Part shown: one piece after another, positions 6,858-61,934 of the stretch
Numbering within the stretch: the stretch's first letter is position 1
Layout: each line of letters opens with the position of its first letter
Source: Escherichia phage vB_Eco_F31
Reading direction: 5' to 3' (one strand)
Length of the DNA stretch: 64,000 nt
Sequence record: OP870147.1
Translations under genes and position numbers: made by a program
Notes under the pieces: generated by a model
The model's input: only the letters and a program-made list of their open reading frames with translations
Database searches by the model: none
Told to the model about the DNA's origin: nothing

Positions 6858-7380
6858 ATTTTAGCAAAATAAAATCAACTTGTTCTGCCAATGAACGTCT
6901 AAACATTAATTGACAACTTCCGAGGATGAAATCAGGTGCTTCATAGACCGCGATGTAGTATCCTTTAGCTTTCAAGAGTTCAACATCCACCTGGTCATCA
7001 AACCATGCATAAACCGCGTCAACACTTTCAAATCCAAAATAGAACCCTTGAGCCCAATCTTCACTCAATTCAAATGTGTGCTCAATTCTATAGTATCTTA
7101 AGATATTTTGTTCAAGGAGTTTGTCTTCATTTACTGTAGGACGATTAGGGACATTATAGTTGTCGCCGTGATGGTAGAAGTTACCTGAGAGTATTCCATG
7201 CTTATCAAGGAACTCCCATGTTTCTTCAGAGTTGTCGGTGCCCGACCAACCGTATGGCGAACGAGGTTCTTTATTCCAAGAGGTTTCCCAAATTCTGACG
7301 GCTTTACCGTCTTCGATAGCAATTCCTGGTAATGATTCACGTTGAGTACAAAAACTACGTTCTACGCGGTAAACTAACAT
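6856..7380 (-). CDS. hypothetical protein
   Basis: 174 aa counted from the internal ATG (MLVYRVERS) that has an AGGAG RBS; the ORF-track start at 7437 is an alternative codon. Confidence 0.5.
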   Translation of the reverse strand: MLVYRVERSFCTQRESLPGIAIEDGKAVRIWETSWNKEPRSPYGWSGTDNSEETWEFLDKHGILSGNFYHHGDNYNVPNRPTVNEDKLLEQNILRYYRIEHTFELSEDWAQGFYFGFESVDAVYAWFDDQVDVELLKAKGYYIAVYEAPDFILGSCQLMFRRSLAEQVDFILLK

Positions 7381-7406
7381 ATTATTCTCCTCTGGTTGAT
7401 ATGGAT

Positions 7407-7436
7407 ATAATATCAAAACCGGAGGAGAAGTAAACA
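7407..7436 (-). promoter_or_regulatory. early promoter GTTTAC-N17-TATTAT
   Basis: Minus strand GTTTAC + 17 nt + TATTAT upstream of ORF 6856-7380. Confidence 0.5.
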
Positions 7437-7439
7437 ACT

Positions 7440-7859
7440 TTATGCGAAAGCAGCTGGGCTATATTTTTTAATTTGGAATTCAGGAACTACCATGAACTGA
7501 CCAGCGAAAACGATGTTATAAAGCTTAACACCATCTTCTACCCAACGGTCGCTAATAAATCCGGCGATTTGCTTAGTTTTCCACGGTGTTCCATCAGTTG
7601 CCGCAGCAATAGTGAATTCATGGTCTTTTTCAACAGAAACTGATCTGCATAGTCCCCATTTGAACGCTTTTTCTTCTGGCTCAATGAACTGGCTTGAGAC
7701 GTAGCCAATATTACCATTAGCATCACGAACTTTAACTTGGTTACGACCAAAAACCGGATCACTCACAGAAAGAACTTCAACCAACTTCCCGGCAACTTTA
7801 GAGCGAGAAGCAACAGATACATATACGTAATCACCTGTAGAGAGATTTACAATATTCAT
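7440..7859 (-). CDS. hypothetical protein, member 1 of a tandem paralogue trio
   Basis: 139 aa; shares C-terminal motif GFISDRWVEDGVKLYNIVFAGQF with the two upstream ORFs. Confidence 0.55.
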   Translation of the reverse strand: MNIVNLSTGDYVYVSVASRSKVAGKLVEVLSVSDPVFGRNQVKVRDANGNIGYVSSQFIEPEEKAFKWGLCRSVSVEKDHEFTIAAATDGTPWKTKQIAGFISDRWVEDGVKLYNIVFAGQFMVVPEFQIKKYSPAAFA

Positions 7860-7868
7860 AATAATTCC

Positions 7869-8354
7869 TTAAGCTTTACGAGGAGACACATAACGAGTGA
7901 TTTCAGATTCTTTAACAACTCGGAAGTCACCTAAGAATACGATATTGTATAACTTTTCACCATCTTCTACCCATTGGTCACTAATGAAGCCACACATGGT
8001 ATCAGTTGTGCTTGGATAACCATATTCATCGATGAAGTCAAATTCTTTATCAGTCTGGAATTCAACACCTTTACACAAGGCCCATTTGAACTGTACATTA
8101 GGCTCTGTGGATTCAACTTTTTCTCTTGAAGCAAAAGCACTACTCGCAGGAGTTTCCAAGAACTTTGCACGAACATAAGCGAACTGAGTTTCCCTCGACC
8201 CAAGACTAGGAATAATACGAACTTTTACCTCAGAATCTTCATCTTTAACGCCTTCTTTAAGTTGAATACTTACAACTTCGACCAATTTTCCTGCTGCTTT
8301 AGAACGAGATTTTTTAGATACGCGAACGATTTCACCAATAATACCAAGATTCAT
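7869..8354 (-). CDS. hypothetical protein, member 2 of a tandem paralogue trio
   Basis: 161 aa; C-terminal GFISDQWVEDGEKLYNIVFLGDF; own early promoter. Confidence 0.55.
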   Translation of the reverse strand: MNLGIIGEIVRVSKKSRSKAAGKLVEVVSIQLKEGVKDEDSEVKVRIIPSLGSRETQFAYVRAKFLETPASSAFASREKVESTEPNVQFKWALCKGVEFQTDKEFDFIDEYGYPSTTDTMCGFISDQWVEDGEKLYNIVFLGDFRVVKESEITRYVSPRKA

Positions 8355-8383
8355 AATTTTCTCTCTTTGTTTAAGTTGAATTC

Positions 8384-8413
8384 ATTATACTCCATCCGTC
8401 CTTGGATGTACAA
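8384..8413 (-). promoter_or_regulatory. early promoter cassette (variant of the repeated cassette)
   Basis: Minus strand TGTACA-N17-GTATAAT with CCAAGGACGGATGG in the spacer. Confidence 0.45.
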
Positions 8414-8415
8414 CA

Positions 8416-8910
8416 TTAATTAAGGATATTAACCACAGCACTACGTGGAACTACACTAAAATCACCTGCATGAACAACGTTCAGAAGTTCAACACCGTCT
8501 TCAATCCACTGATCAGTCACCCATCCATTTACTGGACCAGCGAATGGGCGTCGAATTGAAACATATTTACACAACAAATCAGTAGGCTCAATAGGCTTAA
8601 TCAGAGTACCGTACATACAAGCGATATCCATATCAATACAGATATCTTTAACGGGTTCTACTTCTTCAATCAACAGTTCAAAGTCGGTGCTTGGAAGGGC
8701 GGTGGTAGAAATTGTACCATATGAATTTTTAATTTCTAAGAATAACCAAGGGCCTTCAACTTGTTTGATGAAGTTAACAATAGTGAAACTATTACCTTGA
8801 GTGGCACCTAAAATTTCACAAAACTTTTCATAAGCTCGCACTGAAGCACCGTACCAGTTGATTTGTTTTTCGTCTTTCAGGATGTAAGTAGCCGTAGTAT
8901 TGATATTCAT
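8416..8910 (-). CDS. hypothetical protein, member 3 of a tandem paralogue trio
   Basis: 164 aa; C-terminal GWVTDQWIEDGVELLNVVHAGDF; own early promoter. Confidence 0.55.
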   Translation of the reverse strand: MNINTTATYILKDEKQINWYGASVRAYEKFCEILGATQGNSFTIVNFIKQVEGPWLFLEIKNSYGTISTTALPSTDFELLIEEVEPVKDICIDMDIACMYGTLIKPIEPTDLLCKYVSIRRPFAGPVNGWVTDQWIEDGVELLNVVHAGDFSVVPRSAVVNILN

Positions 8911-8942
8911 AATGTTTTTTCCTGTTTGGTTAAGATAGAAAG

Positions 8943-8973
8943 ATTATACTCCAACCATCCTTGGTTGTAAACT
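8943..8973 (-). repeat. repeated early promoter cassette (copy 1), PeSL-like
   Basis: attatactccaaccatccttggttgta identical to copies near 50750 and 51770; GTTTAC-N17-GTATAAT on the minus strand. Confidence 0.55.
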
Positions 8974-8977
8974 GATT

Positions 8978-9655
8978 TTATCGCTGTTTTACACTTAACG
9001 GGTCAGGATTCTCAGGGACATCTTCAAGGCCAAGCGCATAACGCTGAGCATATTTTAACATCAAAATATCTTTAGCACAATCATGAATACTATCATGGGC
9101 AACGAATCCTTTTAGCGTACCCATCGGTAATGGACACATACTTAATCCTCGTGTCAACGAGTAAGCTTCGATTGCCGTACGAATATCGCGTTGAGCCCAG
9201 AATTTAACCGGTTCTAATTTATCAGTATCAATATCTGGTTCAAGAACACCTTCATCACGATAGAGGTCACGAATCAAATCGACCAAGATCGGGAAGTCAA
9301 AACTCATACCACGGCACCACATCTGTGATTTCCATTGGTCAACTTTATTAGCTCGACAATAATCTAAAAAGATTTTAATGCCTTCAAGCGTAGTGACATC
9401 GTCTTCAGACGGAGCCAAGTTTTTACGCGCTTCAGCCGATTGTTCTTTCCACCATTTCATAGTGGATTTAGCGAAAACTCGCTTCCCTTTCTGAGAAGCT
9501 AAATTAAATTTAATTCGCTTACCTCGTTGAACAAGTTCTTCAAATGATTCAACAACTTCAGGGTCGGAATTATATGCAATAACCGCAAGGTCAATAACAG
9601 CCGCTTTTGATGTATTGCCGAATGTTTCAAAATCTATAATAACATCAGTGCTCAT
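8978..9655 (-). CDS. dexA: exonuclease A (DEDD-type 3'-5' exonuclease)
   Basis: 225 aa; N-terminal IIDFETFG exonuclease motif; syntenic with T4 dexA next to dda. Confidence 0.75.
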   Translation of the reverse strand: MSTDVIIDFETFGNTSKAAVIDLAVIAYNSDPEVVESFEELVQRGKRIKFNLASQKGKRVFAKSTMKWWKEQSAEARKNLAPSEDDVTTLEGIKIFLDYCRANKVDQWKSQMWCRGMSFDFPILVDLIRDLYRDEGVLEPDIDTDKLEPVKFWAQRDIRTAIEAYSLTRGLSMCPLPMGTLKGFVAHDSIHDCAKDILMLKYAQRYALGLEDVPENPDPLSVKQR

Positions 9656-19799: not shown

Positions 19800-20113
19800 A
19801 TTTCCTCGCAAAATGCCCATTCAGCATGATATACTGTAGCACCTTTAGTATCATTCATTTGAACTACATCTACCGGAGAAATTACTCGATAGAGACGTGG
19901 TTCACCTCCATAAGAGCGTGCTGCTCGTCCTGCATAAATCTTTGCTAAACCGATATCTTCAGTAAAGAATACACGATCCAAGTTTTTCTTACGTCCTGTT
20001 TCAGACAGAACTCCTGTTTCCTCAGGAGGACAAAGCATGTTTTCGATGTTAGCTGAACTACTTGAACCGTGATAAAAAATCTTAAATTCTGCTTTACAAT
20101 CGATGGTTTTCAT
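19796..20113 (-). CDS. hypothetical protein (HGS...Y...Y...E arrangement)
   Basis: 105-aa ORF translationally coupled to dmd; own early promoter. Confidence 0.5.
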   Translation of the reverse strand: MKTIDCKAEFKIFYHGSSSSANIENMLCPPEETGVLSETGRKKNLDRVFFTEDIGLAKIYAGRAARSYGGEPRLYRVISPVDVVQMNDTKGATVYHAEWAFCEEI

Positions 20114-20139
20114 TTTGTTCTCCAGTAGTTGATAGGTCT

Positions 20140-20169
20140 ATAATAACACAACTACTGGAGAAGTAAACT
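20140..20169 (-). promoter_or_regulatory. early promoter upstream of the 105-aa ORF and dmd
   Basis: Minus strand GTTTAC-N17-TATTAT-AGACCTATCAAC; inverted repeat CCAGTAGTT/AACTACTGG around the -10. Confidence 0.55.
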
Positions 20170-20543
20170 TAAAAATGTAATTTAGATACATCTGCGTTGA
20201 TTTCGGTTTGGTTTGCGTCATATGCAATTAAACGAACCGCTTTAGATGGGTCATTCAATGCATAGAAATGATGGAACATTGCTCGAACGATATCACCATT
20301 TACGAGTTCTACCTGGATAGGAGAACCTTTTTCGAGTTGGAAATGTTCATAAGCTTTGATGGTTCGTAGATAATCAAGTTTTTGATTTCCAGCTCCAACA
20401 ATTTGTACGATACGTTTGCCCATGTTTTCCATACGAGATACAATAGTTTTAGGAGCAAGAATAACGTAGGTTGCCAGCGGAGAAACTACTTCAACAGTTG
20501 TGTTTTCGGTGATTGCAGTAAAAATTGCTTGAGACATATTCAT
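20169..20543 (-). CDS. hypothetical protein
   Basis: 124-aa ORF between gene 41 and dmd. Confidence 0.5.
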   Translation of the reverse strand: MNMSQAIFTAITENTTVEVVSPLATYVILAPKTIVSRMENMGKRIVQIVGAGNQKLDYLRTIKAYEHFQLEKGSPIQVELVNGDIVRAMFHHFYALNDPSKAVRLIAYDANQTEINADVSKLHF

Positions 20544-29464: not shown

Positions 29465-29608
29465 CTAGTTAAAGCATTCATACTTTGCTTGTAGTCCAAT
29501 CATAATCCATCCAATTACAAGTGTTGGAATCATTACTGGAGCCGTTAAGCTCCAGTAGATAGTCATGACAAGCATCAATAGTAAAAGTCCTATTGTTATT
29601 GCTTTCAT
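29465..29608 (-). CDS. small hydrophobic peptide
   Basis: 47-aa ORF (MKAITIGLLLLMLVMTIYW...), ATGA-coupled to the SIS gene stop. Confidence 0.3.
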   Translation of the reverse strand: MKAITIGLLLLMLVMTIYWSLTAPVMIPTLVIGWIMIGLQAKYECFN

Positions 29609-30240
29609 TGTTCGCCTCGTAACATGGCACCTAGTGCACCGCCTGGATGGAACTTAAGGAAATCATTAGAGGTAAATCCACGTTCAGACGAAAGGTTGAT
29701 AGCGAACGTATCGATAAGCGCTAACAACAATGTAGTAGACATTGTCGGAGCTAAAGAGTTCTCGTCAACTTCTACCGCGATACCGGTACAGAACGTATAA
29801 TCAAAAAGAGCTTCGTATTCTTGTGGAATGTCAGGGTTACAATGTAACAGAATCTGTTTAACCTGAGGACGAATCATACGAAGATGTTTAGCAACACCTA
29901 TCATTTCTTCAGTCTTACCAGAACGACTGATGTGAACTAATACATCATTAGGTGCAATAAATCCTGCGTCACCATGAGAATAATGCCCAGTGTTCAAATA
30001 CATGCTAGGAATACCTAGTGAAGCAAAAGTCTCGGAAGCTTTAGTTGCGATATTAGCATTCTTACCAACACCTGTAATAATTACCCGGCTTTCATAATTA
30101 CTAAGTCCAGGGCGTCGAAGAGTTTCTAGAATAGCATTATATCGGGCAGGGTTTTGACTAATTACTTTAGCCATAGTGGCAAGAGATGAAGCTTGTTTTA
30201 CGATTGCGTCAATAGCGATAGTAATAGGAGTAGTTTTCAT
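29605..30240 (-). CDS. SIS-domain sugar-phosphate isomerase, KdsD/GutQ (arabinose-5-phosphate isomerase)-like
   Basis: 211 aa; ITGVGKNANIATKASETFASLGIPSMYLNTGHYSHGDAGF parallels the KdsD SIS motif [38 protein letters not shown]; no CBS domains. Confidence 0.65.
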   Translation of the reverse strand: MKTTPITIAIDAIVKQASSLATMAKVISQNPARYNAILETLRRPGLSNYESRVIITGVGKNANIATKASETFASLGIPSMYLNTGHYSHGDAGFIAPNDVLVHISRSGKTEEMIGVAKHLRMIRPQVKQILLHCNPDIPQEYEALFDYTFCTGIAVEVDENSLAPTMSTTLLLALIDTFAINLSSERGFTSNDFLKFHPGGALGAMLRGEQ

Positions 30241-30280
30241 ATTTCTCTCATTTAATTAGTTGGCCATCCTTGGCATTATA

Positions 30281-32992
30281 TCAAAAATCAAACATATCGA
30301 ACAGAGATGCTTTCTTCTCGTAATCGAGTTTAGCTGCTGATGTGAATCCTTCAAGTGGTTTAATAAATGTCTTCTCAAGGAGAACAGTGTAGTCCATCCA
30401 ATGAAGTACATCATCTTTGATTAAATCAGTGATTTCCGTACCAGAAGGCCATGCGATACATTTATCACCGAACGGGTTTCCATCACGTAAAGGCAGAACG
30501 TATACCTTTTCGCCTTCTACAACTTGTGGAGCATCAATATTACCTTTGATAGCTCGGTTATATGTCAGAATTCCACGAATATGGAACGGGCATTTAGGTC
30601 CTGGATATCCACCTACATCATATTTAGCAATGTTATTCGCAGAAGATACCGACGCGATGCTAATATAATTCAATTGACGGAATTCTTTTTCAAACTCTTT
30701 AAAATATTCTTGTAATGATTCTTCACCTTCTTGAAGCATACGACGAATACATTCTTTAAGAGCTTTCTGTACTGCTTTAGGGGTCGAAGATTTCTGAGTT
30801 TCTAGACCCATGATTTTGAGTTTAGGCTCAGCGTAACGAGTACCTTCCATATCCCACACGTTTAATGCATAACGTTTCTTACCAGTCCAGAATCCACCAA
30901 TACCTTTAGAACCGAGCGGAGGACCCGCGATAGCTTCTCGGTCCATGAACATTAAGTGTTGTTTATTGTTCATGTATTCACACATTTCACGGAAACCTTT
31001 ATCAATAGCTGGTTCCATACGTTCACGTGCAAACTTATCTAAGAAGTCTACCCAATGGTTGGTATCACGGAATTTAGATTCACCAACCTTATCAATAATT
31101 TTATCTGCAGATACGTAAATGGAGTCTGTATCACCATATAGAACGAAAGCTTCACCTTCTGTACCACAAACTTCATTCAGATATTCATTAACTTTACGTT
31201 CAATCCACTGTAAAGCCATTTGCCCGAATGTTGTGATTGCAGTAGCATTACGCAAATCATAATAACGGAACCAAACGTTGCCAAGTGCACCATAAAGTGA
31301 GTTGATGAGCAATTTACGGTTAATTTGTGCAGTCATACCTGCAACTTCAGTACGTTGAGCTCTAAACAACATTTCGTTAAGAGATTTAGCAGACAACTTT
31401 TTAATCTTTTCTTTAATCTCATCACTGAAGTCGAAACGATAATCAACATCTAATGGTTCGTCAACAGAAAGATTAGGATTATGCAATGCCTCTTTAATTA
31501 TTTCACCATTACGTTGAGCTGCAAGCATGTAACCTTTATGTTCTTTACGTTGATTAAAGACTTTAGTGATTTCAGTTGGAACTACACCATCACGGTCTTT
31601 ATAATACATCATGCCGTTAGGAGAACAACTGTACACATCTGAAGGACGTTCAGCGATTGCGTTAATATAATCATGCAATGGAGCTACTTTAAACGTTCCT
31701 GCTATTGTTTCTGGGCTAATATTCACTTGGCGAATAATACTTGGATACAGAGATGTAAGGTCGAAACTCATTACATATTTGTATCGATTTGGAATAGGTT
31801 CCTTAACAAAAGCGCCAGGATAAGGTTGAACCGGGTGAGAACGACCTTGTGGAATCACCTTGTTCTGCTCTTTAAGGCTATTAAAAATAATAGCATCCCA
31901 TGTTTTAATTGGGCTAAACACAGATTGAATCTGTATCTTAGCATAATAACCCATGTCCAAACTCAAGTTGATGAACTGACGCTTAGCATCAATTTGCAAT
32001 ACACGATACACGTCGATAATGTTATAAGAAATATATCGTTGGTGATTGCTTTCACGAAGCTTAGAAATAGGGCCGTCATATTTCAGTTTACCAACGTTCA
32101 ATTCAAATTCTGAAATGTAATCCAGAGAATACGACGGTTGATTGGTAAAAGAGAATTTTTTGTAAAGGTCAATGTAATCAAGAACAGAGATACCGAACAA
32201 TGTAATGATTTCACGAGAACCATACATGTTTTCGATAACTTTAACACGAGTTTTACGATGTGGTGATAAACGTTTCGCAGTAGATTCGCCAAAAATATTC
32301 TTGATTCGGTTATACACATACGGAATATCAAATGACTCAACGTTCCATCCAGTCAAAATGACAGGAGTTTTCTGTTGCCAGAAGTTGAGATATTCCATCA
32401 ATAATTCTTTTTCATTATCAAACGGCATATAAACGATTTTGTCGATAATTTCGGATGGAACTTCATCACCACCTTGTTCTTGAAGCTTAGCAGCGATTTC
32501 AATAGACCATTCTTCCACATTACCATATGGAGAATTCAATAGATCAAATACGTAGAACCTGTCGTCAATTGAGTCATAATGGGTGATAGCATCAATCGGA
32601 TGTTTTGCTTGTGACGGCTCAGGGAACCCGTCCGGAGATGTTACTTCGATGTCGAAGTTAGCCACACGAATTTTTGTATGGTCGTATTTGATTTCATAGT
32701 TATAAGTGTCAGACAAATACGCCAATTTGAAATCGTCCATGCCAAGTGCTTCAAGCCCGATATCTTCCATGCGTTTAATCCATTGGGAGGCATCACGCAT
32801 ATTAGCGAACAACTTACGAGTACACGGTTTACCGTAGATATCGAAATATTTCGTAGCCTGACTTTCTGGACAATGAGCAAACAGTGATGGTTTATATTCT
32901 ACTTCACGAGTACGTTCACGGCCATTAGAATCGATGTAACGTTCAAAAATTGAATCACCAATCTGTTCAACCGTTAAGTAAAATTCTTTCAT
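30281..32992 (-). CDS. 43: DNA polymerase (family B), gp43
   Basis: 903 aa; exonuclease and polymerase motifs (FDIE, YGDTDS); N-terminus matches the RB69 gp43 sequence as I remember it. Confidence 0.95.
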   Translation of the reverse strand: MKEFYLTVEQIGDSIFERYIDSNGRERTREVEYKPSLFAHCPESQATKYFDIYGKPCTRKLFANMRDASQWIKRMEDIGLEALGMDDFKLAYLSDTYNYEIKYDHTKIRVANFDIEVTSPDGFPEPSQAKHPIDAITHYDSIDDRFYVFDLLNSPYGNVEEWSIEIAAKLQEQGGDEVPSEIIDKIVYMPFDNEKELLMEYLNFWQQKTPVILTGWNVESFDIPYVYNRIKNIFGESTAKRLSPHRKTRVKVIENMYGSREIITLFGISVLDYIDLYKKFSFTNQPSYSLDYISEFELNVGKLKYDGPISKLRESNHQRYISYNIIDVYRVLQIDAKRQFINLSLDMGYYAKIQIQSVFSPIKTWDAIIFNSLKEQNKVIPQGRSHPVQPYPGAFVKEPIPNRYKYVMSFDLTSLYPSIIRQVNISPETIAGTFKVAPLHDYINAIAERPSDVYSCSPNGMMYYKDRDGVVPTEITKVFNQRKEHKGYMLAAQRNGEIIKEALHNPNLSVDEPLDVDYRFDFSDEIKEKIKKLSAKSLNEMLFRAQRTEVAGMTAQINRKLLINSLYGALGNVWFRYYDLRNATAITTFGQMALQWIERKVNEYLNEVCGTEGEAFVLYGDTDSIYVSADKIIDKVGESKFRDTNHWVDFLDKFARERMEPAIDKGFREMCEYMNNKQHLMFMDREAIAGPPLGSKGIGGFWTGKKRYALNVWDMEGTRYAEPKLKIMGLETQKSSTPKAVQKALKECIRRMLQEGEESLQEYFKEFEKEFRQLNYISIASVSSANNIAKYDVGGYPGPKCPFHIRGILTYNRAIKGNIDAPQVVEGEKVYVLPLRDGNPFGDKCIAWPSGTEITDLIKDDVLHWMDYTVLLEKTFIKPLEGFTSAAKLDYEKKASLFDMFDF

Positions 32993-33051
32993 TTAATTTC
33001 CTTTAGACGAGTTATTGTCTTTTGTTTGTTGATGAACTTATTATACTCCAA

Positions 33052-38137: not shown

Positions 38138-38382
38138 ATGTATTCTCTTCGAATGAAGTCCTCTACATATTTTAACATGTCATCCCTATCAGCAAAATAT
38201 TCATCTAGTTCTGCATACATAACAACACCTGGCGCGTACTCACAGGTAACATACATTGTTCCAAAGAAACGAGGAGTTGATTCCTCGTAATTCTCAGTCC
38301 ATTCAACGATACCAATATAACCGTCACCAATACTAAATTCATGACGATGGATTTCATAATCAGTCTTCGTCATTATACGCAT
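38134..38382 (-). CDS. small hypothetical protein
   Basis: 82-aa ORF between 46 and 47. Confidence 0.4.
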   Translation of the reverse strand: MRIMTKTDYEIHRHEFSIGDGYIGIVEWTENYEESTPRFFGTMYVTCEYAPGVVMYAELDEYFADRDDMLKYVEDFIRREYI

Positions 38383-38617
38383 CCTTGATACATGCTTCAG
38401 CCATTTTAAGAATAGAACCAGGAGTATCGTTGTCCATTATATTAAAGCTAAATTCAATAGCCCAGTCAGTGCAGACATGAACTGCTTTAACTTCATTGCC
38501 TTCAACGCGTAATGGCTCAATCCAATACTTGATAGTGTTCTCGAATCCATCGTCATCTTTAACGTCCATTTCAACTTCAAGCCTGAGACCAGCATTGTTA
38601 AATTCATCTAAAGTCAT
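38360..38617 (-). CDS. small hypothetical protein
   Basis: 85-aa acidic ORF. Confidence 0.4.
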   Translation of the reverse strand: MTLDEFNNAGLRLEVEMDVKDDDGFENTIKYWIEPLRVEGNEVKAVHVCTDWAIEFSFNIMDNDTPGSILKMAEACIKDAYNDED

Positions 38618-49465: not shown

Positions 49466-49770
49466 TATAATGTTCTCTCAAATTTGTGGAAGCATTTACG
49501 GCATTTCAATTTCAAGTTATCAGTTGTCCAGTTAACCAGTTGGACTTGGATAGTTCCACATTCCGGGCATGGATGTTTTGCTGCCGATTTGGCAGCATTT
49601 TCACGTCGTTCAACCATTTTCATTATTTCGTTCCATGCCGGAGGAACAAACTCTTCTTCACCGTGGATTTTATCTCGCTGAACAAATTCAATCTTTGAAC
49701 TATCGTCAATAAACTTAACCAAGCCATGATTAGTGCTCATATCAATATCCTCTAAAAGACGTAGTTTCAT
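49465..49770 (-). CDS. zinc-ribbon protein
   Basis: 101 aa; CPECG...CRKC. Confidence 0.45.
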   Translation of the reverse strand: MKLRLLEDIDMSTNHGLVKFIDDSSKIEFVQRDKIHGEEEFVPPAWNEIMKMVERRENAAKSAAKHPCPECGTIQVQLVNWTTDNLKLKCRKCFHKFERTL

Positions 49771-50720
49771 TATAACACCTCAATGGCATTTCGTAAACCA
49801 TCCGCTTTCGCATTCAGAGCTTTTAACGATTTAGTTTGTTCTGCAATCTGGGCTTCGACTTCTTTCAGACGAGATTTGAGATATTCGCGTTCTTCTCTTA
49901 AGTTATCAACCTTTTCTGCTTTAGGCTCTTTAATAGGCTTAGGCTTATACTCGTTAGGGTTCTTCAACTTAATTTGAATGCGAGAACTGTATAACATTGA
50001 ACCATTATCTTCGGTTTCATCATACATTTCTACCACGTCCATGATTCTTAACATCATGCGAAGTTTATAAGACAGCGAACGAATGGTTTTATTGTGCTTC
50101 TTAATTTCTTCAGCTTTCATGGTGCCGAGATTACGTGAGTAATAATAAGGAACCTGAATATCAATTGATAATGATGCGGTACCATTACCGGTTGGTTTGA
50201 ACACTGCAGTAACCCAATCTTTAGCATGAACTGTATTTGTACGATCATCGCCGCCTGTGAATAATTTACGAGAATGTTTAAAAAGCATATTCACTTGGTT
50301 ATTGAATTCACAAGCAAATTTATCAGCAAATTTAGTTTCAGGAATGGTAGTTAACCAATCAGCCAAATGAGTCTTTTTAACATCATTAACAATAGTGAAT
50401 TCAACCAAATCGGTTTTAGATGTCACAGTTTTAATAAAGCTCGGCTTCATAAAGTTTTTAATGTTATCGCGAGCTACAGTAGAAGATAATAAACGAGAAC
50501 GTTTGAACCATTGAAGCAGTGTCCCTAATGAATGAGAATATGCATTTTGAGTATCTTTACAGATATGATTTTCTTGGCCTATGTATGTACCAAAATCTCG
50601 AAGAATACCACTTACTACATCTCGGTGTGGAACATCAAATCCTAGTGCACCAGAAGCACGTTGGGCATGAACGTTAGCGATAAGACCTGCAAAGTATTCA
50701 ATGTAATGTGAACGTGTCAT
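49770..50720 (-). CDS. hypothetical protein with C-terminal coiled coil
   Basis: 316 aa; preceded by a repeated promoter cassette. Confidence 0.5.
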   Translation of the reverse strand: MTRSHYIEYFAGLIANVHAQRASGALGFDVPHRDVVSGILRDFGTYIGQENHICKDTQNAYSHSLGTLLQWFKRSRLLSSTVARDNIKNFMKPSFIKTVTSKTDLVEFTIVNDVKKTHLADWLTTIPETKFADKFACEFNNQVNMLFKHSRKLFTGGDDRTNTVHAKDWVTAVFKPTGNGTASLSIDIQVPYYYSRNLGTMKAEEIKKHNKTIRSLSYKLRMMLRIMDVVEMYDETEDNGSMLYSSRIQIKLKNPNEYKPKPIKEPKAEKVDNLREEREYLKSRLKEVEAQIAEQTKSLKALNAKADGLRNAIEVL

Positions 50721-50749
50721 AATATTTTCCTCTCGTTAAGATAAATTCA

Positions 50750-50778
50750 TTATACTCCAACCATCCTTGGTTGTAAAC
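50750..50778 (-). repeat. repeated early promoter cassette (copy 2), PeSL-like
   Basis: attatactccaaccatccttggttgtaaac; GTTTAC-N17-GTATAAT on the minus strand upstream of ORF 49770-50720. Confidence 0.55.
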
Positions 50779-50782
50779 TATT

Positions 50783-51742
50783 TTATGATTTTAATGCATT
50801 CATTGCGTTAAAAAGTTTAGAATACTGCAACTGGAGATTCGTTACAACACTTTGAGCATCACGAAGCTTAGCTTGTGCTTTGTCAAGTTCAACAGACAGT
50901 TGGTCCATAGTGGCCTTGATTTGATTGTAATGGTAATCTTCGGCCGGAAGAAGGTCATTAGAAACATTTAGTTTTACTGCAGACAGTTTGCACACATTTG
51001 GCAAACCTTTAAACATTGATTTAGCCGAAGTAGAATAAGCACTTAGGACTTCGGCTTGTTCAATTGGGGTCCCAGTAAGCGATGCTTCAAACAATGCATT
51101 TTCCTTTTTAAGATTTTGATAGTATTCAGAGTCTTTGTGCCACCATGGCGCAGGAACCTTTTTACCAATAGATACACGAGCCTGGATAGCGATATTGCCC
51201 TTATTCTTGATAGGGTCGATAATATTAAGCTCACGAGAATAAATTGCTTTAATCTGGTGAATATTATCACCTAACACTTCCAACGCTTGGTGGAATACAC
51301 GAGCAACGTTATCATTCTTAGGTTTATACGTGAGAGTGAACTCGTTCTCACTGATAACCATGATTTCCAACTTATCGTAAGTATATTTCAAATGTTTCAT
51401 GTTAATTGCTTGAGGACGAATACGAGAAGCAATGGCCATCAGATTGTTAAGGTTATTCCGGAACTGCTTAGCGAAATATTGTCCTTCACCGCCAATACAA
51501 AAATTACGAAGTTTCTGTTTGGCCAATAAACGGCTGAACTCACCATTTTTAATGAACTCTTTAACGGGTGTGTTAGTAACGCATTCAAATTTAGTAAACT
51601 TACGAGAATTAATCCCATAATACGAACAGATTTCCTCAATCTCTTCAGGAGTCTTTACAGGCATACGGATAGGATTAGGTCCTGGAGTATATGCGTTCGA
51701 GGTAAATTCTTTGATAAGTTCTTTACGTGTAATAAAAGCCAT
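50783..51742 (-). CDS. hypothetical protein with C-terminal coiled coil
   Basis: 319 aa; preceded by an identical promoter cassette. Confidence 0.5.
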   Translation of the reverse strand: MAFITRKELIKEFTSNAYTPGPNPIRMPVKTPEEIEEICSYYGINSRKFTKFECVTNTPVKEFIKNGEFSRLLAKQKLRNFCIGGEGQYFAKQFRNNLNNLMAIASRIRPQAINMKHLKYTYDKLEIMVISENEFTLTYKPKNDNVARVFHQALEVLGDNIHQIKAIYSRELNIIDPIKNKGNIAIQARVSIGKKVPAPWWHKDSEYYQNLKKENALFEASLTGTPIEQAEVLSAYSTSAKSMFKGLPNVCKLSAVKLNVSNDLLPAEDYHYNQIKATMDQLSVELDKAQAKLRDAQSVVTNLQLQYSKLFNAMNALKS

Positions 51743-51769
51743 TTTATATTCCTCATGTTGAAAAATTTA

Positions 51770-51797
51770 TTATACTCCAACCATCCTTGGTTGTACA
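51770..51797 (-). repeat. repeated early promoter cassette (copy 3), PeSL-like
   Basis: attatactccaaccatccttggttgtaca upstream of ORF 50783-51742. Confidence 0.55.
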
Positions 51798-52793
51798 TCA
51801 TTCCTTAAGAAGTTTTACTACCTGAATAAGATTAGCTCGTTCTGTTTTATTTTTACCGTTTAAGCCTGCTAATCGTGAGATTTCATCGTCAGTCTGTTGA
51901 ATAGTTACATTAAGTTCGTTAATCAAAGCTTCAAAGTATTTGATTTGCTCAGCATGTTTTGATTCAAATTTCTGAACCGGAATAACGTCTTGGTTTAGTT
52001 CATCAATAAGGTCTTTAAGAGCATCTTCTTGGTTGATATCATATTCAACTTCTTTTATTTCTTCAATGAGCTCGTCTTTATATCTAACGTCTTTTAGTCC
52101 TGGTGCTGGTCCTGAAATCTCTTCTTTAAGAGTACAAACATATCCAATACGGTATCCAATGCCGTCTCGCTTGATATCAACTTCGTCGATAAATCCACAA
52201 TGTTTAAGCCCGGAGCCGATTATGTCAAAATATCCTTGACGTCGTCCTTCAAACGTTACACGAACTACTAAGACAGTTTTACCTGCAACCTTTTGAAGCT
52301 CACATTTATAAAAGTCAGTTGAACCTGAATAACGTGGATGAGTTTTAAAGTTCATCTGACGATCTAGGCCCATTTGTAAGCGTGCTGTTACGGCCATAAA
52401 ACGTGTTTGGTTCTCGTTAAGATGAGCAACAATCCATTTCAAAGGCATTTTACACTGTTCACGACCGAACAAATCAGTACGTCCTAGATTACGCAGGATG
52501 TTGTTAGAGTTAATCATCGACAGAACGTTAAGTTTATTCAGCGCGCTGAAGATTCCATCAGCCATTGATTTTCCATAACCTTTACACGCTTTAATAAGTG
52601 CTCGCGGCAGATTAGTATAGATTTCAGACGGCATATGAAAATCAAATTTACTAGTCAGTAATTGATGAACTTGGATAGCAATTTGCTCATAATTAAGTGC
52701 TCTGCGATCGTTATGGTCTTTAAACCACACTTTAATCTGTGAAGCACATAAACCGTTAATTTCATGTTTTACCGCATCAGATGTAATGCTCAT
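51798..52793 (-). CDS. hypothetical protein with C-terminal coiled coil
   Basis: 331-aa ORF. Confidence 0.5.
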   Translation of the reverse strand: MSITSDAVKHEINGLCASQIKVWFKDHNDRRALNYEQIAIQVHQLLTSKFDFHMPSEIYTNLPRALIKACKGYGKSMADGIFSALNKLNVLSMINSNNILRNLGRTDLFGREQCKMPLKWIVAHLNENQTRFMAVTARLQMGLDRQMNFKTHPRYSGSTDFYKCELQKVAGKTVLVVRVTFEGRRQGYFDIIGSGLKHCGFIDEVDIKRDGIGYRIGYVCTLKEEISGPAPGLKDVRYKDELIEEIKEVEYDINQEDALKDLIDELNQDVIPVQKFESKHAEQIKYFEALINELNVTIQQTDDEISRLAGLNGKNKTERANLIQVVKLLKE

Positions 52794-52855
52794 AACTATT
52801 TCCTCAGATTGAATTGGAACTCAAAACCATTATAACCCGTCCTTGGGTAAAGCGT

Positions 52856-53383
52856 TTATGCGTGAACCGTCTTTAAACGTTCTTCAAATTTCCGAAGAGT
52901 ACTAATACGTTCTGCTTTCTGTTTTGTATAGTTTGCAATACGTTCTGAAGTGAGAGCGTATCGTTCGTTTACTGTTTCTTTCATGAAGTCAGGGATTTCA
53001 CGAGAAGCTTTAATTTCATCAAACTTATCGAGTACTGCCTGGTCTTCAGCAATTAAATTTTCGTACATCTCGATATCTTTCTTGATGAAGTCGATATCTT
53101 CCTGGGTTACTTTGGATAAACGAGATGCTTTATCCTTTTTGTACTGCTCGTTAGTTTCACGAGACCAGAATAATGTACGTTTTTTGTTAGTGTTTTTGTA
53201 GACTTCCACAATTCCAACTGAATCGATGATAACAATCCAATTCCAGCGAGATTTGAAAATCTGACCTCCGTCCACGGTAATCTCGTTACCATAAGCAACG
53301 TCATTAAAGAACTTGCTTTGTGCTTCAGATTTAAATTTACCGTCGTTATAATTTACCAGGTTGAAAATATCTTTAGCGTTCAT
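52856..53383 (-). CDS. hypothetical protein
   Basis: 175-aa ORF with early promoter upstream. Confidence 0.45.
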   Translation of the reverse strand: MNAKDIFNLVNYNDGKFKSEAQSKFFNDVAYGNEITVDGGQIFKSRWNWIVIIDSVGIVEVYKNTNKKRTLFWSRETNEQYKKDKASRLSKVTQEDIDFIKKDIEMYENLIAEDQAVLDKFDEIKASREIPDFMKETVNERYALTSERIANYTKQKAERISTLRKFEERLKTVHA

Positions 53384-53410
53384 GTTTTACCTCCAGTAGT
53401 TGATAGGTCT

Positions 53411-53439
53411 ATAATAACATAACCATAGACCTTGTAAAC
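53411..53439 (-). promoter_or_regulatory. early promoter GTTTAC-N17-TATTAT-AGACCTATC
   Basis: Inverted repeat AGGTCTAT/ATAGACCT flanks the -10; upstream of ORF 52856-53383. Confidence 0.55.
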
Positions 53440-53441
53440 AA

Positions 53442-53729
53442 CTAAAAGAAACTTTTTTCGGTATTTTTTCCACTGAACCAAACAGACTTCGGGATTTTTT
53501 GTAATTTTTCAGATTTAAGTTTCTCTTCTTGTTCTTTCTTATATACACCCTTGTCGTACTGGAGCATCTCTATGGCATTCTTTTGCAAACGATCTAAGGT
53601 AATTAAGGCTTTAGTTTTTCCTTTCAAGGAAGAGTCCTGGCGAACCTCCTCACTATATTGCATCGTAGAACTAACCATACGATGAGCATACAGTTCGACT
53701 GCGGCTTTAATTTTTTGCATAAAATCCAT
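53442..53729 (-). CDS. small hypothetical protein
   Basis: 95-aa ORF. Confidence 0.4.
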   Translation of the reverse strand: MDFMQKIKAAVELYAHRMVSSTMQYSEEVRQDSSLKGKTKALITLDRLQKNAIEMLQYDKGVYKKEQEEKLKSEKLQKIPKSVWFSGKNTEKSFF

Positions 53730-60651: not shown

Positions 60652-61190
60652 TCTTTTATTTCCAGTAGTTTATTTGATTTAAGGTAATTAGCCTTTTCTA
60701 GGACTTCAGAAGCATATTTACTTCCAGCACTTGTCTTCCATCCCGCATTATATGAGGATATAGCTTTTCTTATATCCCCGTTATGTATATTTAACCAATA
60801 AGAAAATTCGATATAAGCCCATCTGGCTGAATTAGACCGCTTAGATAGCATTTTCTTAATTTGGGCATCAGTCATATTATAACCAAGCTGGTTAATTCTT
60901 GCCCTCATTGTTGGTAGATAATTTTGGAACATTCCATACGCATGGTGACCTTTCTTATCTTTAAGATTAATACCGGCAGATGATTCCTGCCATAGTATTG
61001 CGGCCATTATGTATCCAAGTCCTTTCTTATGCATATTTTCATGCGTTTTAAATTTTCCGTCCTTAGAAAACTGTTCCCCAAACTGATAAGCATAATTCAA
61101 GTTATCGAGTTGGACATTACTAAAAGTATGCTCGGAGCTATGTGCTGATAACGAAAGAGCAAATAGACCAGCGAGTAGTGCTTTTCTCAT
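60648..61190 (-). CDS. secreted lytic transglycosylase (SLT domain)
   Basis: 180 aa; signal peptide; SLT motifs ILWQESSAG, AYGMFQ, YNAG. Confidence 0.6.
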   Translation of the reverse strand: MRKALLAGLFALSLSAHSSEHTFSNVQLDNLNYAYQFGEQFSKDGKFKTHENMHKKGLGYIMAAILWQESSAGINLKDKKGHHAYGMFQNYLPTMRARINQLGYNMTDAQIKKMLSKRSNSARWAYIEFSYWLNIHNGDIRKAISSYNAGWKTSAGSKYASEVLEKANYLKSNKLLEIKE

Positions 61191-61198
61191 GTTTACCT

Positions 61199-61657
61199 CT
61201 AGATTTTAATCACTGCTTTAGAAGCTTTTCCTGGTAGTCGTTTACTGTTAATAATAGCCATTCTACATTGAAGAGTCTTCATTTTGAATGCCGGATTTTC
61301 GCGACAAACTGTAAGTCCTAACCAAAGATTTCCGTCAGTTATTTCTAAACGGCCTGGACGATACTCGACACCTTCGACAAAATCTTCATCAACATCTGGA
61401 CGTGCCGGCATTGATAAAAATTCTGCAACTTCTTTAACGTGATTTTTTACTTTATGAAATAATTCAAAAACGTAATTCTCATCTATTTCTCTCTGGATGG
61501 CACGATCTAAGAGATGTTGAGAATACTTGATATGAAAGCCTGGTAGTCCAAGAGACTTTGCAGCATCTTTTATACCGGCATTTATTTTGCGGAACTCCGT
61601 TTCAAAGATTCGACGGAGTTTATTACGGCGGATAAAAACTTCCGAATTGATAGTCAT
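61199..61657 (-). CDS. regB: RegB site-specific endoribonuclease
   Basis: 152 aa; MTINSEVFIRRNKLRR...QCRMAIINSKRLPGKASKAVIKI near-colinear with T4 RegB as recalled. Confidence 0.85.
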   Translation of the reverse strand: MTINSEVFIRRNKLRRIFETEFRKINAGIKDAAKSLGLPGFHIKYSQHLLDRAIQREIDENYVFELFHKVKNHVKEVAEFLSMPARPDVDEDFVEGVEYRPGRLEITDGNLWLGLTVCRENPAFKMKTLQCRMAIINSKRLPGKASKAVIKI

Positions 61658-61685
61658 TTTGATTTCTCCTCTAGTTGACAGGTCT

Positions 61686-61714
61686 ATAGTAACACAACTA
61701 GAGGAGAAGTAAAC
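61686..61714 (-). promoter_or_regulatory. early promoter upstream of regB
   Basis: Minus strand GTTTAC-N17-TACTAT-AGACCTGTCAACTAGAGGAG; inverted repeat CTCTAGTTG/CAACTAGAG. Confidence 0.55.
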
Positions 61715-61718
61715 TACT

Positions 61719-61934
61719 TTATTGATAAAATGGAGTTAAAGCCCAAGATTCTTTAGATACCATATTGGCGAAATGCCTCATCTCTTCGATTTGGCGACGA
61801 CGCTGGTCAGCATAGTCTTCTTCGCCTTCTTCCTTACAATCTTCAAGGTCTTCTTCAAGATACTTTAAGTATTCACTACAAATTTTGTTGACCTTTTCTT
61901 GAAAGTCCAATAACCCAGTAATAGTAGAAGCCAT
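61719..61934 (-). CDS. small acidic hypothetical protein
   Basis: 71-aa ORF. Confidence 0.4.
   Translation of the reverse strand: MASTITGLLDFQEKVNKICSEYLKYLEEDLEDCKEEGEEDYADQRRRQIEEMRHFANMVSKESWALTPFYQ

What the first reader, a model, noticed from the sequence alone, without database searches (positions are those of the whole stretch)
50741..51800. Identical early-promoter cassettes repeated at accessory gene boundaries (PeSL-like mobile regulatory modules)
The about 27-bp segment attatactccaaccatccttggttgta occurs identically at about 8943, 50750 and 51770, with variants at 8384 and 33040. Each copy reads on the minus strand as GTTTAC/GTACA -35, a 17-bp spacer containing the palindromic CCAAGGATGG, and GTATAAT -10, and each precedes a separate accessory gene. 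Such repeats could both drive early transcription and act as recombination sites for modular gene shuffling.
Basis: partly seen in the sequence, partly recalled or inferred. Interest (0 to 1): 0.55.

Follow-up and report, generated by a model that had tools for sequence, protein, structure and literature searches.

The report
Recombining early-promoter cassettes with conserved hairpin
Four near-identical ~55-base promoter cassettes sit in front of dispensable early genes of this RB69-like (T4-type) phage; related phages have gained or lost those genes exactly at the cassettes, and each cassette hides a small conserved hairpin whose reader is unknown.

Summary
The repeat is real. The 27-mer is exact at 8943, 50749 and 51769, with a 3-mismatch copy at 8384 (0 expected by chance). 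The "33040 variant" is a different element, in front of DNA polymerase.

The window is a Mosigvirus (RB69-like), 99% identical to phage NBG1. Each copy is a T4-type early promoter filling the gap between two minus-strand genes. All four were already predicted as early promoters in RB69.

The recombination idea holds. 21 of 153 Mosigvirus records lack the gene between the 50749 and 51769 copies (nrdC.5) and keep one chimeric cassette. The gene between 8384 and 8943 is lost the same way in other phages, with two different crossover points. Between genera, only the cassette is conserved between unrelated flanking genes.

This is the known PeSL idea in a new genus, with one difference. There is no terminator stem-loop upstream of the -35. 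Instead a weak hairpin lies inside the spacer, with an invariant loop (C-AAGGAY-G) and a covarying stem, conserved in T4, Dhakavirus and Mosigvirus. The loop matches the CsrA consensus and loosely a RegB site; neither reader was tested.

Promoter activity and mini-circles are also untested.

The parts
8384..8412 (-). Cassette copy 1, the variant: TGTACA, 17 nt, TATAAT. It sits in front of a MotB homologue (7869-8354).
   Evidence: The RB69 homologue is predicted promoter Pe:8387.
8393..8408 (-). Spacer hairpin CATCC-AAGGAC-GGATG.
8943..8971 (-). Cassette copy 2, exact: TTTACA, 17 nt, TATAAT. It lies between dexA (8978-9655) and a motB.1-like gene (8416-8910).
   Evidence: RB69 Pe:8947.
8952..8967 (-). 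Spacer hairpin CAACCA-AGGA-TGGTTG.
   Evidence: -6.9 kcal/mol.
8416..8910 (-). Cargo gene between copies 1 and 2: motB.1-like, 164 aa. It is absent in phi25-307 and in contig NFYZ01001493.
50749..50777 (-). Cassette copy 3, exact: TTTACA, 17 nt, TATAAT. It sits in front of nrdC.3 (49770-50720).
   Evidence: RB69 Pe:51019. NBG1 'promoter' feature.
50758..50773 (-). Spacer hairpin CAACCA-AGGA-TGGTTG.
50783..51742 (-). Cargo gene between copies 3 and 4: nrdC.5, 319 aa, DUF7235. It is present or absent among Mosigviruses.
51769..51797 (-). Cassette copy 4, exact: TGTACA, 17 nt, TATAAT. It sits in front of nrdC.5, 1 nt after the stop codon of nrdC.6 (51798-52793).
   Evidence: RB69 Pe:52042.
51778..51793 (-). 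Spacer hairpin CAACCA-AGGA-TGGTTG.
52829..52848 (-). Hairpin ACCC-AAGGAC-GGGT abutting a TATAAT, between nrdC.8 and nrdC.6. The TTTAC lies only 11 nt from the -10, and this site is not a predicted promoter in RB69.
   Evidence: The homologous junction in T4 and JS10 carries TTATACCA-AGGA-TGGTATAA.
30263..30274 (-). Hairpin GCCA-AGGA-TGGC between the DNA polymerase gene (30281-32992) and an RB69-lineage SIS-domain accessory gene (29605-30240). Here it lies downstream of a TATAAT.

Best explanation
These are intergenic regulatory cassettes of the T-even phage type. Each runs from the stop codon of one gene to the ATG of the next and holds a sigma70-type early promoter (GTTTACA or TGTACA, 17 nt, TATAAT), a short 5' UTR and a Shine-Dalgarno sequence.

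Inferred from consensus: they give each dispensable early gene (MotB paralogues, nrdC.3, nrdC.5) its own host-RNA-polymerase promoter.

Shown by comparison of genomes: because the same ~30-55 nt recur at several gene boundaries, the phage's short-homology recombination crosses over inside them. That deletes, inserts or replaces the flanked gene and always leaves one intact, chimeric cassette. Exchange between copies at different loci keeps them nearly identical.

Shown: embedded in the promoter spacer is a weak hairpin with an invariant loop, C-AAGGAY-G, and a covarying stem.

Inferred: the hairpin lies upstream of the cassette's own predicted start site. It would therefore exist as RNA only on transcripts reading through from upstream, and its invariant loop points to a sequence-specific reader. 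The best candidate is host CsrA. The alternative is the phage RegB nuclease. Either would mark or process read-through mRNA at the gene boundary.
For: Promoter:
- The copies are the top sigma70-like scores in their regions.
- All four homologues are predicted early promoters in RB69.
- NBG1 carries a promoter feature on one of them.

Recombination:
- A synthetic deletion junction is found as one contiguous piece in p000v, AV110, WFL6982 and others.
- 21 of 153 records have it.
- The p000v cassette is the left flank of copy 3, the shared core, and the right flank of copy 4.
- On trees of both flanking genes the presence/absence trait needs at least 4 changes in 100 of 100 bootstraps.
- At the second locus there are two different crossover points: phi25-307 and contig L045.
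- ESCO47 has a hybrid hairpin, CAACC-AAGGAC-GGATG, and a 5' UTR like the dexA-locus copy.
- Against JS10, only the ~80-nt cassettes align.
- In ESCO47 the cassette bin at window 52800 is 98% identical inside a 49-76% identical segment.

Hairpin:
- Every intergenic CAAGGAYG (6 in the window, 4 in T4) has 2-6 further Watson-Crick pairs on either side.
- Every coding or antisense occurrence has 0-1. Background P(3 or more) is 0.02.
- 92% of cells are paired against 58% in shuffles, and 4 of 5 pairs show compensatory changes.
- One G.U variant is on the sense strand.
- No intrinsic terminator was found between nrdC.10 and nrdC.3, so read-through is expected.
Against: - No transcript 5' ends or promoter assays exist for this phage or for the T4 homologues, as far as I could find.
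- Two copies have a weak -35 (TGTACA); the RB69 HMM scores are 18.2 and 6.2.
- The polyphyletic indel pattern could come from one old event spread by recombination in the flanks rather than from repeated crossovers, apart from the two distinct crossover points at the dexA locus.
- Compensatory stem changes could arise neutrally through quasipalindrome template switching, known in T4 (my own knowledge), rather than through selection.
- The hairpin is weak: -6.9 kcal/mol, z -0.3 to -2.0.
- Only 6 of 10 downstream Shine-Dalgarno sequences carry a second GGA, which weakens a classic two-site CsrA repression model.
- No literature links CsrA to T4 early mRNAs.
Confidence: 0.75

Rival explanations
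1. The hairpin is a high-affinity binding site for the host regulator CsrA, presented only on read-through transcripts. CsrA would then repress translation of the downstream gene, protect the upstream mRNA, or promote Rho termination at the gene boundary. In effect it would supply the 'terminator' half of the cassette through a trans-acting factor. This refines the best explanation rather than competing with it.
For: - The CsrA SELEX consensus is RUACARGGAUGU, with GGA in the loop of a short hairpin (PMC4347634).
- The T4 nrdC.4 and rIIA.1 copies read ACAAGGAUGU, 10 of 10 over the core. The Mosigvirus copies read CCAAGGAUGG.
- The base after GGA varies U/C in every cassette type. My recollection is that CsrB repeats, CAGGA(U/C/A)G, tolerate this.
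- The hairpin is weak, as protein-binding hairpins are.
- CsrA is known to induce Rho termination on pgaA.
- CsrB is unusually stable during T4 infection (PMC9697503).
Against: - ACA, reported as 100% conserved in SELEX, is CCA in most copies.
- A GGA in the downstream Shine-Dalgarno sequence is present in only 6 of 10 cassettes.
- There are only 4-6 copies per genome.
- No binding data and no literature link exist.
- The motif is absent from Salmonella phage S16, although Salmonella has CsrA.
Confidence: 0.3
2. The hairpin is a processing site for the phage endoribonuclease RegB. RegB would cut GG^AU in the loop and/or the GG^AG just 3' of the stem. That would sever read-through transcripts at gene boundaries and expose the downstream part to decay.
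For: - RegB cuts GGAG/U in intergenic regions of early genes. Without S1 it acts when GGA is unpaired and the fourth nucleotide is constrained. Strong sites read GG*AGRAYARAA (PMC3014915).
- In the AGGA-loop form, GGA is unpaired and the U is paired.
- Five cassette types carry GGAGUAUAAU directly 3' of the stem.
- The window encodes a RegB homologue, 78% identical to T4 RegB, at 61205-61657.
Against: - Three cassette types have GGAC in the loop, which is not a known RegB target.
- T4 nrdC.4, nrdC.7 and rIIA.1 lack the 3' GGAG.
- The RegB SELEX found no structural motif.
- GGAGUAUAAUG matches only 4 of the 7 positions 3' of GGAG in the strong-site consensus.
Confidence: 0.15
3. The cassette is a canonical PeSL, and the stem-loop acts as an intrinsic transcription terminator or attenuator for upstream transcription.
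For: - PeSLs combine a sigma70-like promoter with a stem-loop that terminates transcription, and they lie next to indels in hyperplastic regions (PMC2839356, PMC4122927).
- Degraded PeSLs were reported around 43, 47, 50 and 51 kb in phage PST. T4's nrdC.3-nrdC.5 genes lie at about 49-52 kb.
Against: - The upstream stop codon lies 1-13 nt from the -35, so there is no room for a stem-loop there.
- The hairpin is inside the spacer, has only 5-6 bp at -6.9 kcal/mol, and is not followed by a T run.
- The terminator scan finds nothing at any copy.
- A plain terminator would not need an invariant loop sequence.
Confidence: 0.07
4. The conserved core acts at the DNA level, as a spacer element contacted by RNA polymerase or a regulator, or as a recombination signal. 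The inverted repeat would be maintained by template-switch mutation rather than by RNA function.
For: - In 9 of 10 cassette types the core lies within 0-6 nt of a TATAAT.
- In T4 nrdC.4, nrdC.7 and rIIA.1 the 3' arm supplies a TGn extended -10.
- The PeSL authors speculated about a DNA-binding recombination factor.
- Quasipalindrome correction is documented in T4 (my own knowledge).
Against: - The register relative to the -10 shifts: overlapping, abutting, 4-5 nt upstream, and downstream at 30263. A fixed polymerase contact is therefore unlikely.
- The core AAGGAY is asymmetric, so it is not a dimer operator.
- The hairpin persists at 52835, where no properly spaced -35 exists.
- All intergenic copies are on the transcribed strand.
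Confidence: 0.12

Closest known systems
PeSLs (promoter-early stem-loops) of T4-type phages: RB49/phi1 (Arbiol et al. 2010, PMC2839356) and PST/T4 and nt-1/KVP40 (Comeau et al. 2014, PMC4122927)
   Same: - Repeated intergenic cassettes with a sigma70-like early promoter (TTTACW, 17 nt, TAYWAT in T4/PST), a Shine-Dalgarno sequence and an ATG.
- Concentrated among non-essential genes.
- Found at the borders of insertions, deletions and replacements between close relatives.
- Crossovers mapped inside the cassette.
   Different: - There is no stem-loop upstream of the -35 and no terminator features.
- The hairpin is inside the 17-nt spacer, is weak, and has an invariant loop sequence with a covarying stem.
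- It also occurs without a properly spaced promoter.
- Mini-circles were not tested here.
- The genus (Mosigvirus) was not analysed in those papers; RB69 has 0 mentions in the main text of PMC2839356.
Predicted RB69 early promoters Pe:8387, Pe:8947, Pe:51019, Pe:52042 (Nolan et al. 2006, PMC1524935)
   Same: These are the same four sites in the type species of the genus, found with an HMM of the T4 early promoter consensus.
   Different: That list gives coordinates and scores only. A term search of the paper's main text found no mention of hairpins or stem-loops.
T4 long-transcript RBS sequestration (genes e, soc, 49, I-TevI; review PMC3014915)
   Same: A promoter is placed so that its own transcript lacks an upstream RNA element that is present on read-through transcripts. 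Other early promoters in this window do exactly this, with spacer-to-SD hairpins.
   Different: In the cassettes studied here the hairpin does not pair with the Shine-Dalgarno sequence. Any effect on read-through mRNA would need a trans-acting reader of the loop.
CsrA/RsmA binding hairpins (SELEX RUACARGGAUGU, GGA in a hairpin loop; PMC4347634)
   Same: A short weak hairpin with GGA in the loop and a core CA-A-GGA-Y-G. The T4 copies match 10 of 10 core positions.
   Different: This is a resemblance only. Most copies have CCA instead of ACA. No binding was tested. The site lies in a phage promoter spacer, not a host 5' leader.

Membership tests
T4-type early promoter | GTTTAC-type -35, spacer of about 17 nt, TATAAT-type -10, correct strand, 5' of an ORF | tested here: met
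   11/12 and 10/12 with 17-nt spacers; each copy lies 22-32 nt upstream of an ATG. The RB69 homologues are in the HMM prediction list.
T4-type early promoter | A-rich UP-like region at about -40 to -45 | tested here: inconclusive
   Present at 8943 (GCGATAAAATCA) and 50749 (AAAATCATAAAATA). Absent at 8384 and 51769, where coding sequence runs up to the -35.
T4-type early promoter | Transcription initiates there immediately after infection | not testable with these tools
   No transcript data were found.
PeSL | Stem-loop just upstream of the -35 that acts as a terminator or attenuator | tested here: not met
   The stop codon lies 1-13 nt from the -35. No terminator-like site exists at any copy. 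The only hairpin is inside the spacer, at -6.9 kcal/mol and with no T run.
PeSL | Repeated at several intergenic sites among non-essential genes | tested here: met
   3-4 places per Mosigvirus genome; the flanked genes are MotB paralogues and nrdC.x genes of unknown function.
PeSL | Indels or replacements between close relatives have their borders in the cassette | tested here: met
   (nrdC.5). (motB.1-like gene). (homology islands and a hybrid cassette).
PeSL | Recombination between neighbouring copies yields circular excision products (mini-circles) | not testable with these tools
   This needs inverse PCR on infected cells or virion DNA.
CsrA binding site | GGA in the loop of a short hairpin, within a consensus RUACARGGAUGU | tested here: inconclusive
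   The loop AAGGAY is invariant and the stem covaries. The match to the consensus is 10/10 over the core in T4 nrdC.4 and rIIA.1, and 9/12 in the Mosigvirus copies. ACA is replaced by CCA in most copies.
CsrA binding site | Binding of CsrA and a CsrA-dependent effect on expression | not testable with these tools
   No data exist in the searchable literature.
RegB cleavage site | GGAG (or GGAU), accessible, followed by an A-rich RAYARAA context | tested here: inconclusive
   The loop holds GGAU or GGAC. GGAGUAUAAU lies 3' of the stem in 5 of 10 cassette types and matches 4 of the 7 downstream consensus positions.
Intrinsic terminator | G+C-rich stem followed by a T run | tested here: not met
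Any Rfam RNA family | Match at the family's gathering score | tested here: not met
   0 matches in the whole window.

The most novel reading that the evidence does not exclude
The spacer-embedded C-AAGGAY-G hairpin would be a dedicated RNA signal that T-even phages place at accessory-gene boundaries. It would be read by host CsrA, or by the phage RegB nuclease, only on read-through transcripts. Each plug-in gene would then be expressed from its own promoter but insulated post-transcriptionally from its neighbours. That would give a trans-factor-dependent functional equivalent of the PeSL terminator, and the first link between the Csr system and T4-type early gene expression.
Probability: 0.25. 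Interest if true: 0.75.

Novelty: new variant of a known kind. Interest (0 to 1): 0.5.

Why it matters
It gives clean, sequence-level support in a third branch of the T-even phages for the idea that conserved promoter cassettes act as linkers for modular gene shuffling. The support includes reciprocal states, several crossover points and a hybrid hairpin.

That explains how accessory genes are swapped without disturbing the regulation of their neighbours. It is also practically useful for engineering therapeutic Mosigviruses, because the cassettes are natural insertion and deletion sites.

The conserved hairpin inside the promoter spacer is a small, well-defined element shared by T4 itself. 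T4 genetics, CsrA and RegB reagents already exist, so its function is directly testable.

Tried and rejected
- **Tandem duplication of paralogous genes with their promoters.** Rejected for the nrdC copies: nrdC.3, nrdC.5 and nrdC.6 show no significant mutual similarity. It may hold in part for the MotB paralogues (1e-9 to 1e-27).
- **Intrinsic terminator.** Rejected.
- **Known RNA family.** None found.
- **The 33040 site as a family member.** Rejected.
- **Spread beyond the T4 / RB69 / JS10 group.** No such hairpin in Salmonella phage S16, 1-50 kb. Scans of IMG/VR and JGI metagenomes gave 10 stretches each. All carried contexts already seen in T4-type genomes, with no new cargo genes.
- **Further T4 copies.** The late and right-hand early regions of T4 (120-169 kb) have none. 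T4 78-120 kb was not fetched.
- **The search for related loci with nrdC.8.** It returned only 8 loci.
- **Literature search.** Searches for the motif and for a CsrA-T4 link found nothing relevant. The T4 genome review (PMC150520) is not held.
- **CsrA sponge idea.** Set aside: there are only 4-6 sites per genome.
- **Coding-region hit.** A hairpin-like hit at 61051-61072 is inside a coding ORF and lacks the C:G closing pair, so I treated it as chance.
Full report
**1. The observation**

The 27-mer ATTATACTCCAACCATCCTTGGTTGTA is exact at 8943, 50749 and 51769. A 3-mismatch copy lies at 8384. None of 100 dinucleotide-preserving shuffles gave any match. Similarity runs beyond the 27 nt: 8929-8978 and 50735-50784 are 88% identical over 50 nt.

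All genes here are on the minus strand. On that strand the copies read (G)TTTACA or TGTACA, then the 17-nt spacer ACCAAGGATGGTTGGAG, then TATAAT. They are the best or near-best sigma70-like sites in their regions, scoring 11/12 for the two TTTACA copies and 10/12 for the two TGTACA copies.

The site at 33040 shares only TGGAGTATAAT. It follows a GGGACttcgGTCCC-ATTT terminator and precedes the gp43 translational operator and the DNA polymerase gene. It is a different element.

CCAAGGATGG is not a palindrome. The symmetry is the inverted repeat CAACCA / TGGTTG around AGGA.

**2. Setting**

The window is a Mosigvirus (RB69-like Tevenvirinae), 99% identical to phage vB_EcoM_NBG1 over window 50000-53000, and it starts near the conventional genome start.

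Each cassette fills the whole gap between two genes:

| Cassette | Upstream gene | Downstream gene |
|---|---|---|
| 8943 | dexA | motB.1-like gene (8416-8910) |
| 8384 | motB.1-like gene | MotB homologue (7869-8354) |
| 51769 | nrdC.6 | nrdC.5 (DUF7235, 50783-51742) |
| 50749 | nrdC.5 | nrdC.3 (49770-50720) |

These assignments rest.

The stop codon of the upstream gene lies 1-13 nt from the -35. The cassette occurs 3-4 times per Mosigvirus genome and once in Dhakavirus genomes.

**3. Promoter function (inferred, not measured)**

The homologous RB69 sites are the early promoters Pe:8387, Pe:8947, Pe:51019 and Pe:52042, predicted by Nolan et al. 2006 with HMM scores 6.2, 27.2, 27.8 and 18.2 (PMC1524935 Additional file 3). 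One copy is annotated 'promoter' in the NBG1 record.

The two GTTTACA copies have an A-rich upstream region. The two TGTACA copies do not. I found no transcript-start data.

**4. Recombination module (shown by comparison)**

*The nrdC.5 locus.* I joined the left flank of the 50749 copy to the right flank of the 51769 copy. This is the product expected from a crossover between the two copies.

- The junction is found as one contiguous piece at 97-98% identity in p000v, AV110, PTE-Eco05, WFL6982, WFK, JM10 and JM17. Other Mosigviruses show two pieces about 1 kb apart.
- With a 171-nt junction, 21 of 153 matching records have the contiguous form.
- In p000v, nrdC.3 and nrdC.6 are adjacent, with one cassette whose downstream half is that of copy 3 and whose upstream half is that of copy 4.
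- On neighbour-joining trees of nrdC.3 and of nrdC.6 (15 genomes, 6 lacking nrdC.5), the presence/absence trait needs at least 4 changes in all 100 bootstrap replicates for each gene. The state is therefore not inherited clonally with its flanks.

*The dexA locus.* phi25-307 lacks the motB.1-like gene. It has one chimeric cassette made of the -35 side of the 8943 copy and the hairpin and 5' UTR of the 8384 copy. A metagenome contig lacks the same gene but has its crossover downstream of the -10 (L045). That gives two independent events at one locus.

*ESCO47.* Its single nrdC cassette has a hybrid hairpin, with the 5' arm CAACC and the 3' arm GGATG and one mismatch. Its 5' UTR resembles the dexA-locus copy. 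This points to crossovers within the loop and to exchange between copies 42 kb apart, which would also explain why the copies stay identical.

*Between genera.*

- Against Dhakavirus JS10, only the ~80-nt cassettes align. The flanking genes do not, and there the cassette precedes nrdC.4.
- Against T4, nucleotide homology of nrdC.8 stops at the cassette.
- In ESCO47 the cassette-containing bin at window 52800 is 98% identical while the genes on both sides are 49-76% identical.
- Gene sets between nrdC.6 and nrdC.2 differ by genus. T4 has nrdC.5, nrdC.4 and nrdC.3. Mosigviruses have nrdC.5 and nrdC.3, or nrdC.3 alone. JS10 has an nrdC.5-like gene and nrdC.4.

**5. The hairpin**

The same core, C-AAGGAY-G, occurs with different flanking stems:

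| Stem | Where |
|---|---|
| CAACC / GGTTG | Mosigvirus copies at 8943, 50749, 51769 |
| CATCC / GGATG | window 8384; JS10 nrdC.4; phi25-307 |
| AGCC / GGCT | T4 nrdC.3 |
| CCAC / GTGG | T4 nrdC.4 |
| TACCAC / GTGGTA | T4 rIIA.1 |
| TTATACC / GGTATAA | T4 nrdC.7; JS10 nrdC.6 (here the 3' arm is the -10 itself) |
| ACCC / GGGT | window 52835 |
| GCC / GGC | window 30263 |

To avoid selecting for stems, I listed every CAAGGAYG 8-mer.

- All 10 intergenic occurrences (6 in the window, 4 in T4 over 1-78 and 120-169 kb) have 2-6 further Watson-Crick pairs; 9 of the 10 have at least 3.
- All 16 occurrences in coding sequence or on the other strand have 0-1.
- The background probability of 3 or more pairs is 0.02.

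On an alignment of 10 distinct instances, 92% of cells pair against 58% in shuffles. Four of five pairs show compensatory changes, and sliding the partner destroys the signal. Some of these instances were found by a stem search, so the 8-mer census is the less biased test.

The base after GGA is U or C in every cassette type. One variant has a G.U pair on the sense strand (L039).

The hairpin is weak: -6.9 kcal/mol, with z-scores from -0.3 to -2.0. It has no T run and matches no Rfam family. It also occurs where there is no properly spaced -35 (52835) and downstream of a TATAAT (30263).

A weak stem with an invariant asymmetric loop argues for a sequence-specific reader of a single-stranded hairpin. 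It argues against both a terminator and a dimeric DNA operator.

**6. Likely mechanism of the hairpin (inferred)**

The hairpin lies upstream of the cassette's own predicted start. It would be made as RNA only on transcripts coming from upstream promoters. No intrinsic terminator was found between nrdC.10 and nrdC.3.

Other early promoters in this window use a related layout. Their spacer pairs with the downstream Shine-Dalgarno sequence, with the -10 in the loop (-19.7 to -21.6 kcal/mol, z -3.3 to -4.4). This resembles the known T4 cases e, soc, 49 and I-TevI (PMC3014915).

For the AAGGAY family there are two candidate readers.

- **Host CsrA.** Its SELEX consensus is RUACARGGAUGU, with GGA in a hairpin loop (PMC4347634). 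The T4 nrdC.4 and rIIA.1 copies match ACAAGGAUGU exactly.
- **Phage RegB.** It cuts GGAG/U, works when GGA is unpaired and the fourth base is constrained, and has strong sites reading GG*AGRAYARAA. A RegB homologue lies at 61205-61657.

The U/C variation and the lack of a GGAG in several copies favour CsrA. The CCA-for-ACA substitution, and a second GGA in only 6 of 10 downstream Shine-Dalgarno sequences, weaken it. Neither candidate was tested, and no paper in the library links CsrA to T4 early mRNAs. Neutral quasipalindrome correction could contribute to the stem symmetry (my own knowledge), but it does not explain the invariant loop.

**7. Comparison with what is known**

The concept is that of PeSLs: Arbiol et al. 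2010 for RB49/phi1 and Comeau et al. 2014 for PST/T4 and nt-1/KVP40. Shared features are the repeated sigma70-like early promoter cassette, its place among non-essential genes, and indel borders inside the cassette.

The defining upstream terminator stem-loop is not present. I therefore file this as a variant that works like a PeSL, not as a member. The promoters themselves were already predicted in RB69.

As far as I could find, four things are new:

- the documented recurrent, cassette-bounded loss or gain of nrdC.5 and of the motB.1-like gene in Mosigviruses;
- the hybrid cassettes;
- the conserved spacer hairpin shared by T4, Dhakavirus and Mosigvirus;
- the fact that T4 has its own near-identical pair, TAGTTTACTTT(G/A)CCACAAGGATGTGGTATAAT, before rIIA.1 and nrdC.4.

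**8. Verdict**

The kind is known, with a distinct and testable twist. Interest is moderate (0.5). It would rise if the hairpin proves to be a CsrA or RegB signal.

Noticed in passing
window 20110-20185, 61655-61730, 7380-7450, 53385-53450 (minus strand): Other early-promoter families fold so that the promoter spacer pairs with the downstream Shine-Dalgarno sequence, with the -10 in the loop (-19.7 to -21.6 kcal/mol, z -3.3 to -4.4). Read-through transcripts would have the ribosome binding site closed, and transcripts from the promoter itself would have it open. One of these promoters precedes the RegB homologue.
   Followed up: partly
It holds a terminator hairpin GGGACttcgGTCCC-ATTT after regA, then GGAGTATAAT, then the gp43 translational operator hairpin AGAC-AAUAACUC-GUCU in front of the DNA polymerase gene.
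   Followed up: partly
L014 (T4) 2433-2450 and L003 (T4) 6951-6964: T4 has its own near-identical cassette pair, 29 of 30 nt: TAGTTTACTTT(G/A)CCACAAGGATGTGGTATAAT. One copy precedes rIIA.1 and the other nrdC.4, about 48 kb apart.
   Followed up: partly
L017 (ESCO47), about 2535-2592, between nrdC.3 and nrdC.6: A hybrid hairpin, CAACC-AAGGAC-GGATG, with the arms of two cassette types and one mismatch. Its 5' UTR resembles the dexA-locus copy. The nrdC.6 and nrdC.8 alleles next to it are only 49-76% identical to the window, while the cassette between them is 98% identical.
   Followed up: partly
window 7440-8910: Three tandem paralogues carry the MotB C-terminal domain (139, 161 and 164 aa). Only the two upstream ones have a cassette. 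The third follows after 9 nt.
   Followed up: partly
window 50900-51100: The 3' end (C-terminal part) of nrdC.5 drops to 59-70% identity between Mosigviruses that are otherwise 97-100% identical around it. This is a hypervariable patch not bounded by cassettes.
   Followed up: no
window 29605-30240: A SIS-domain protein (PHROG arabinose 5-phosphate isomerase) is encoded directly after the DNA polymerase gene. At the corresponding position T4 has imm.1 instead. The junction carries a copy of the AAGGAU hairpin.
   Followed up: partly
window 38373-38393 (minus strand): CAAGGATGCGTATAAT lies inside the overlap of two small ORFs. It has the same core next to a TATAAT but no stem. I treated it as chance.
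   Followed up: no
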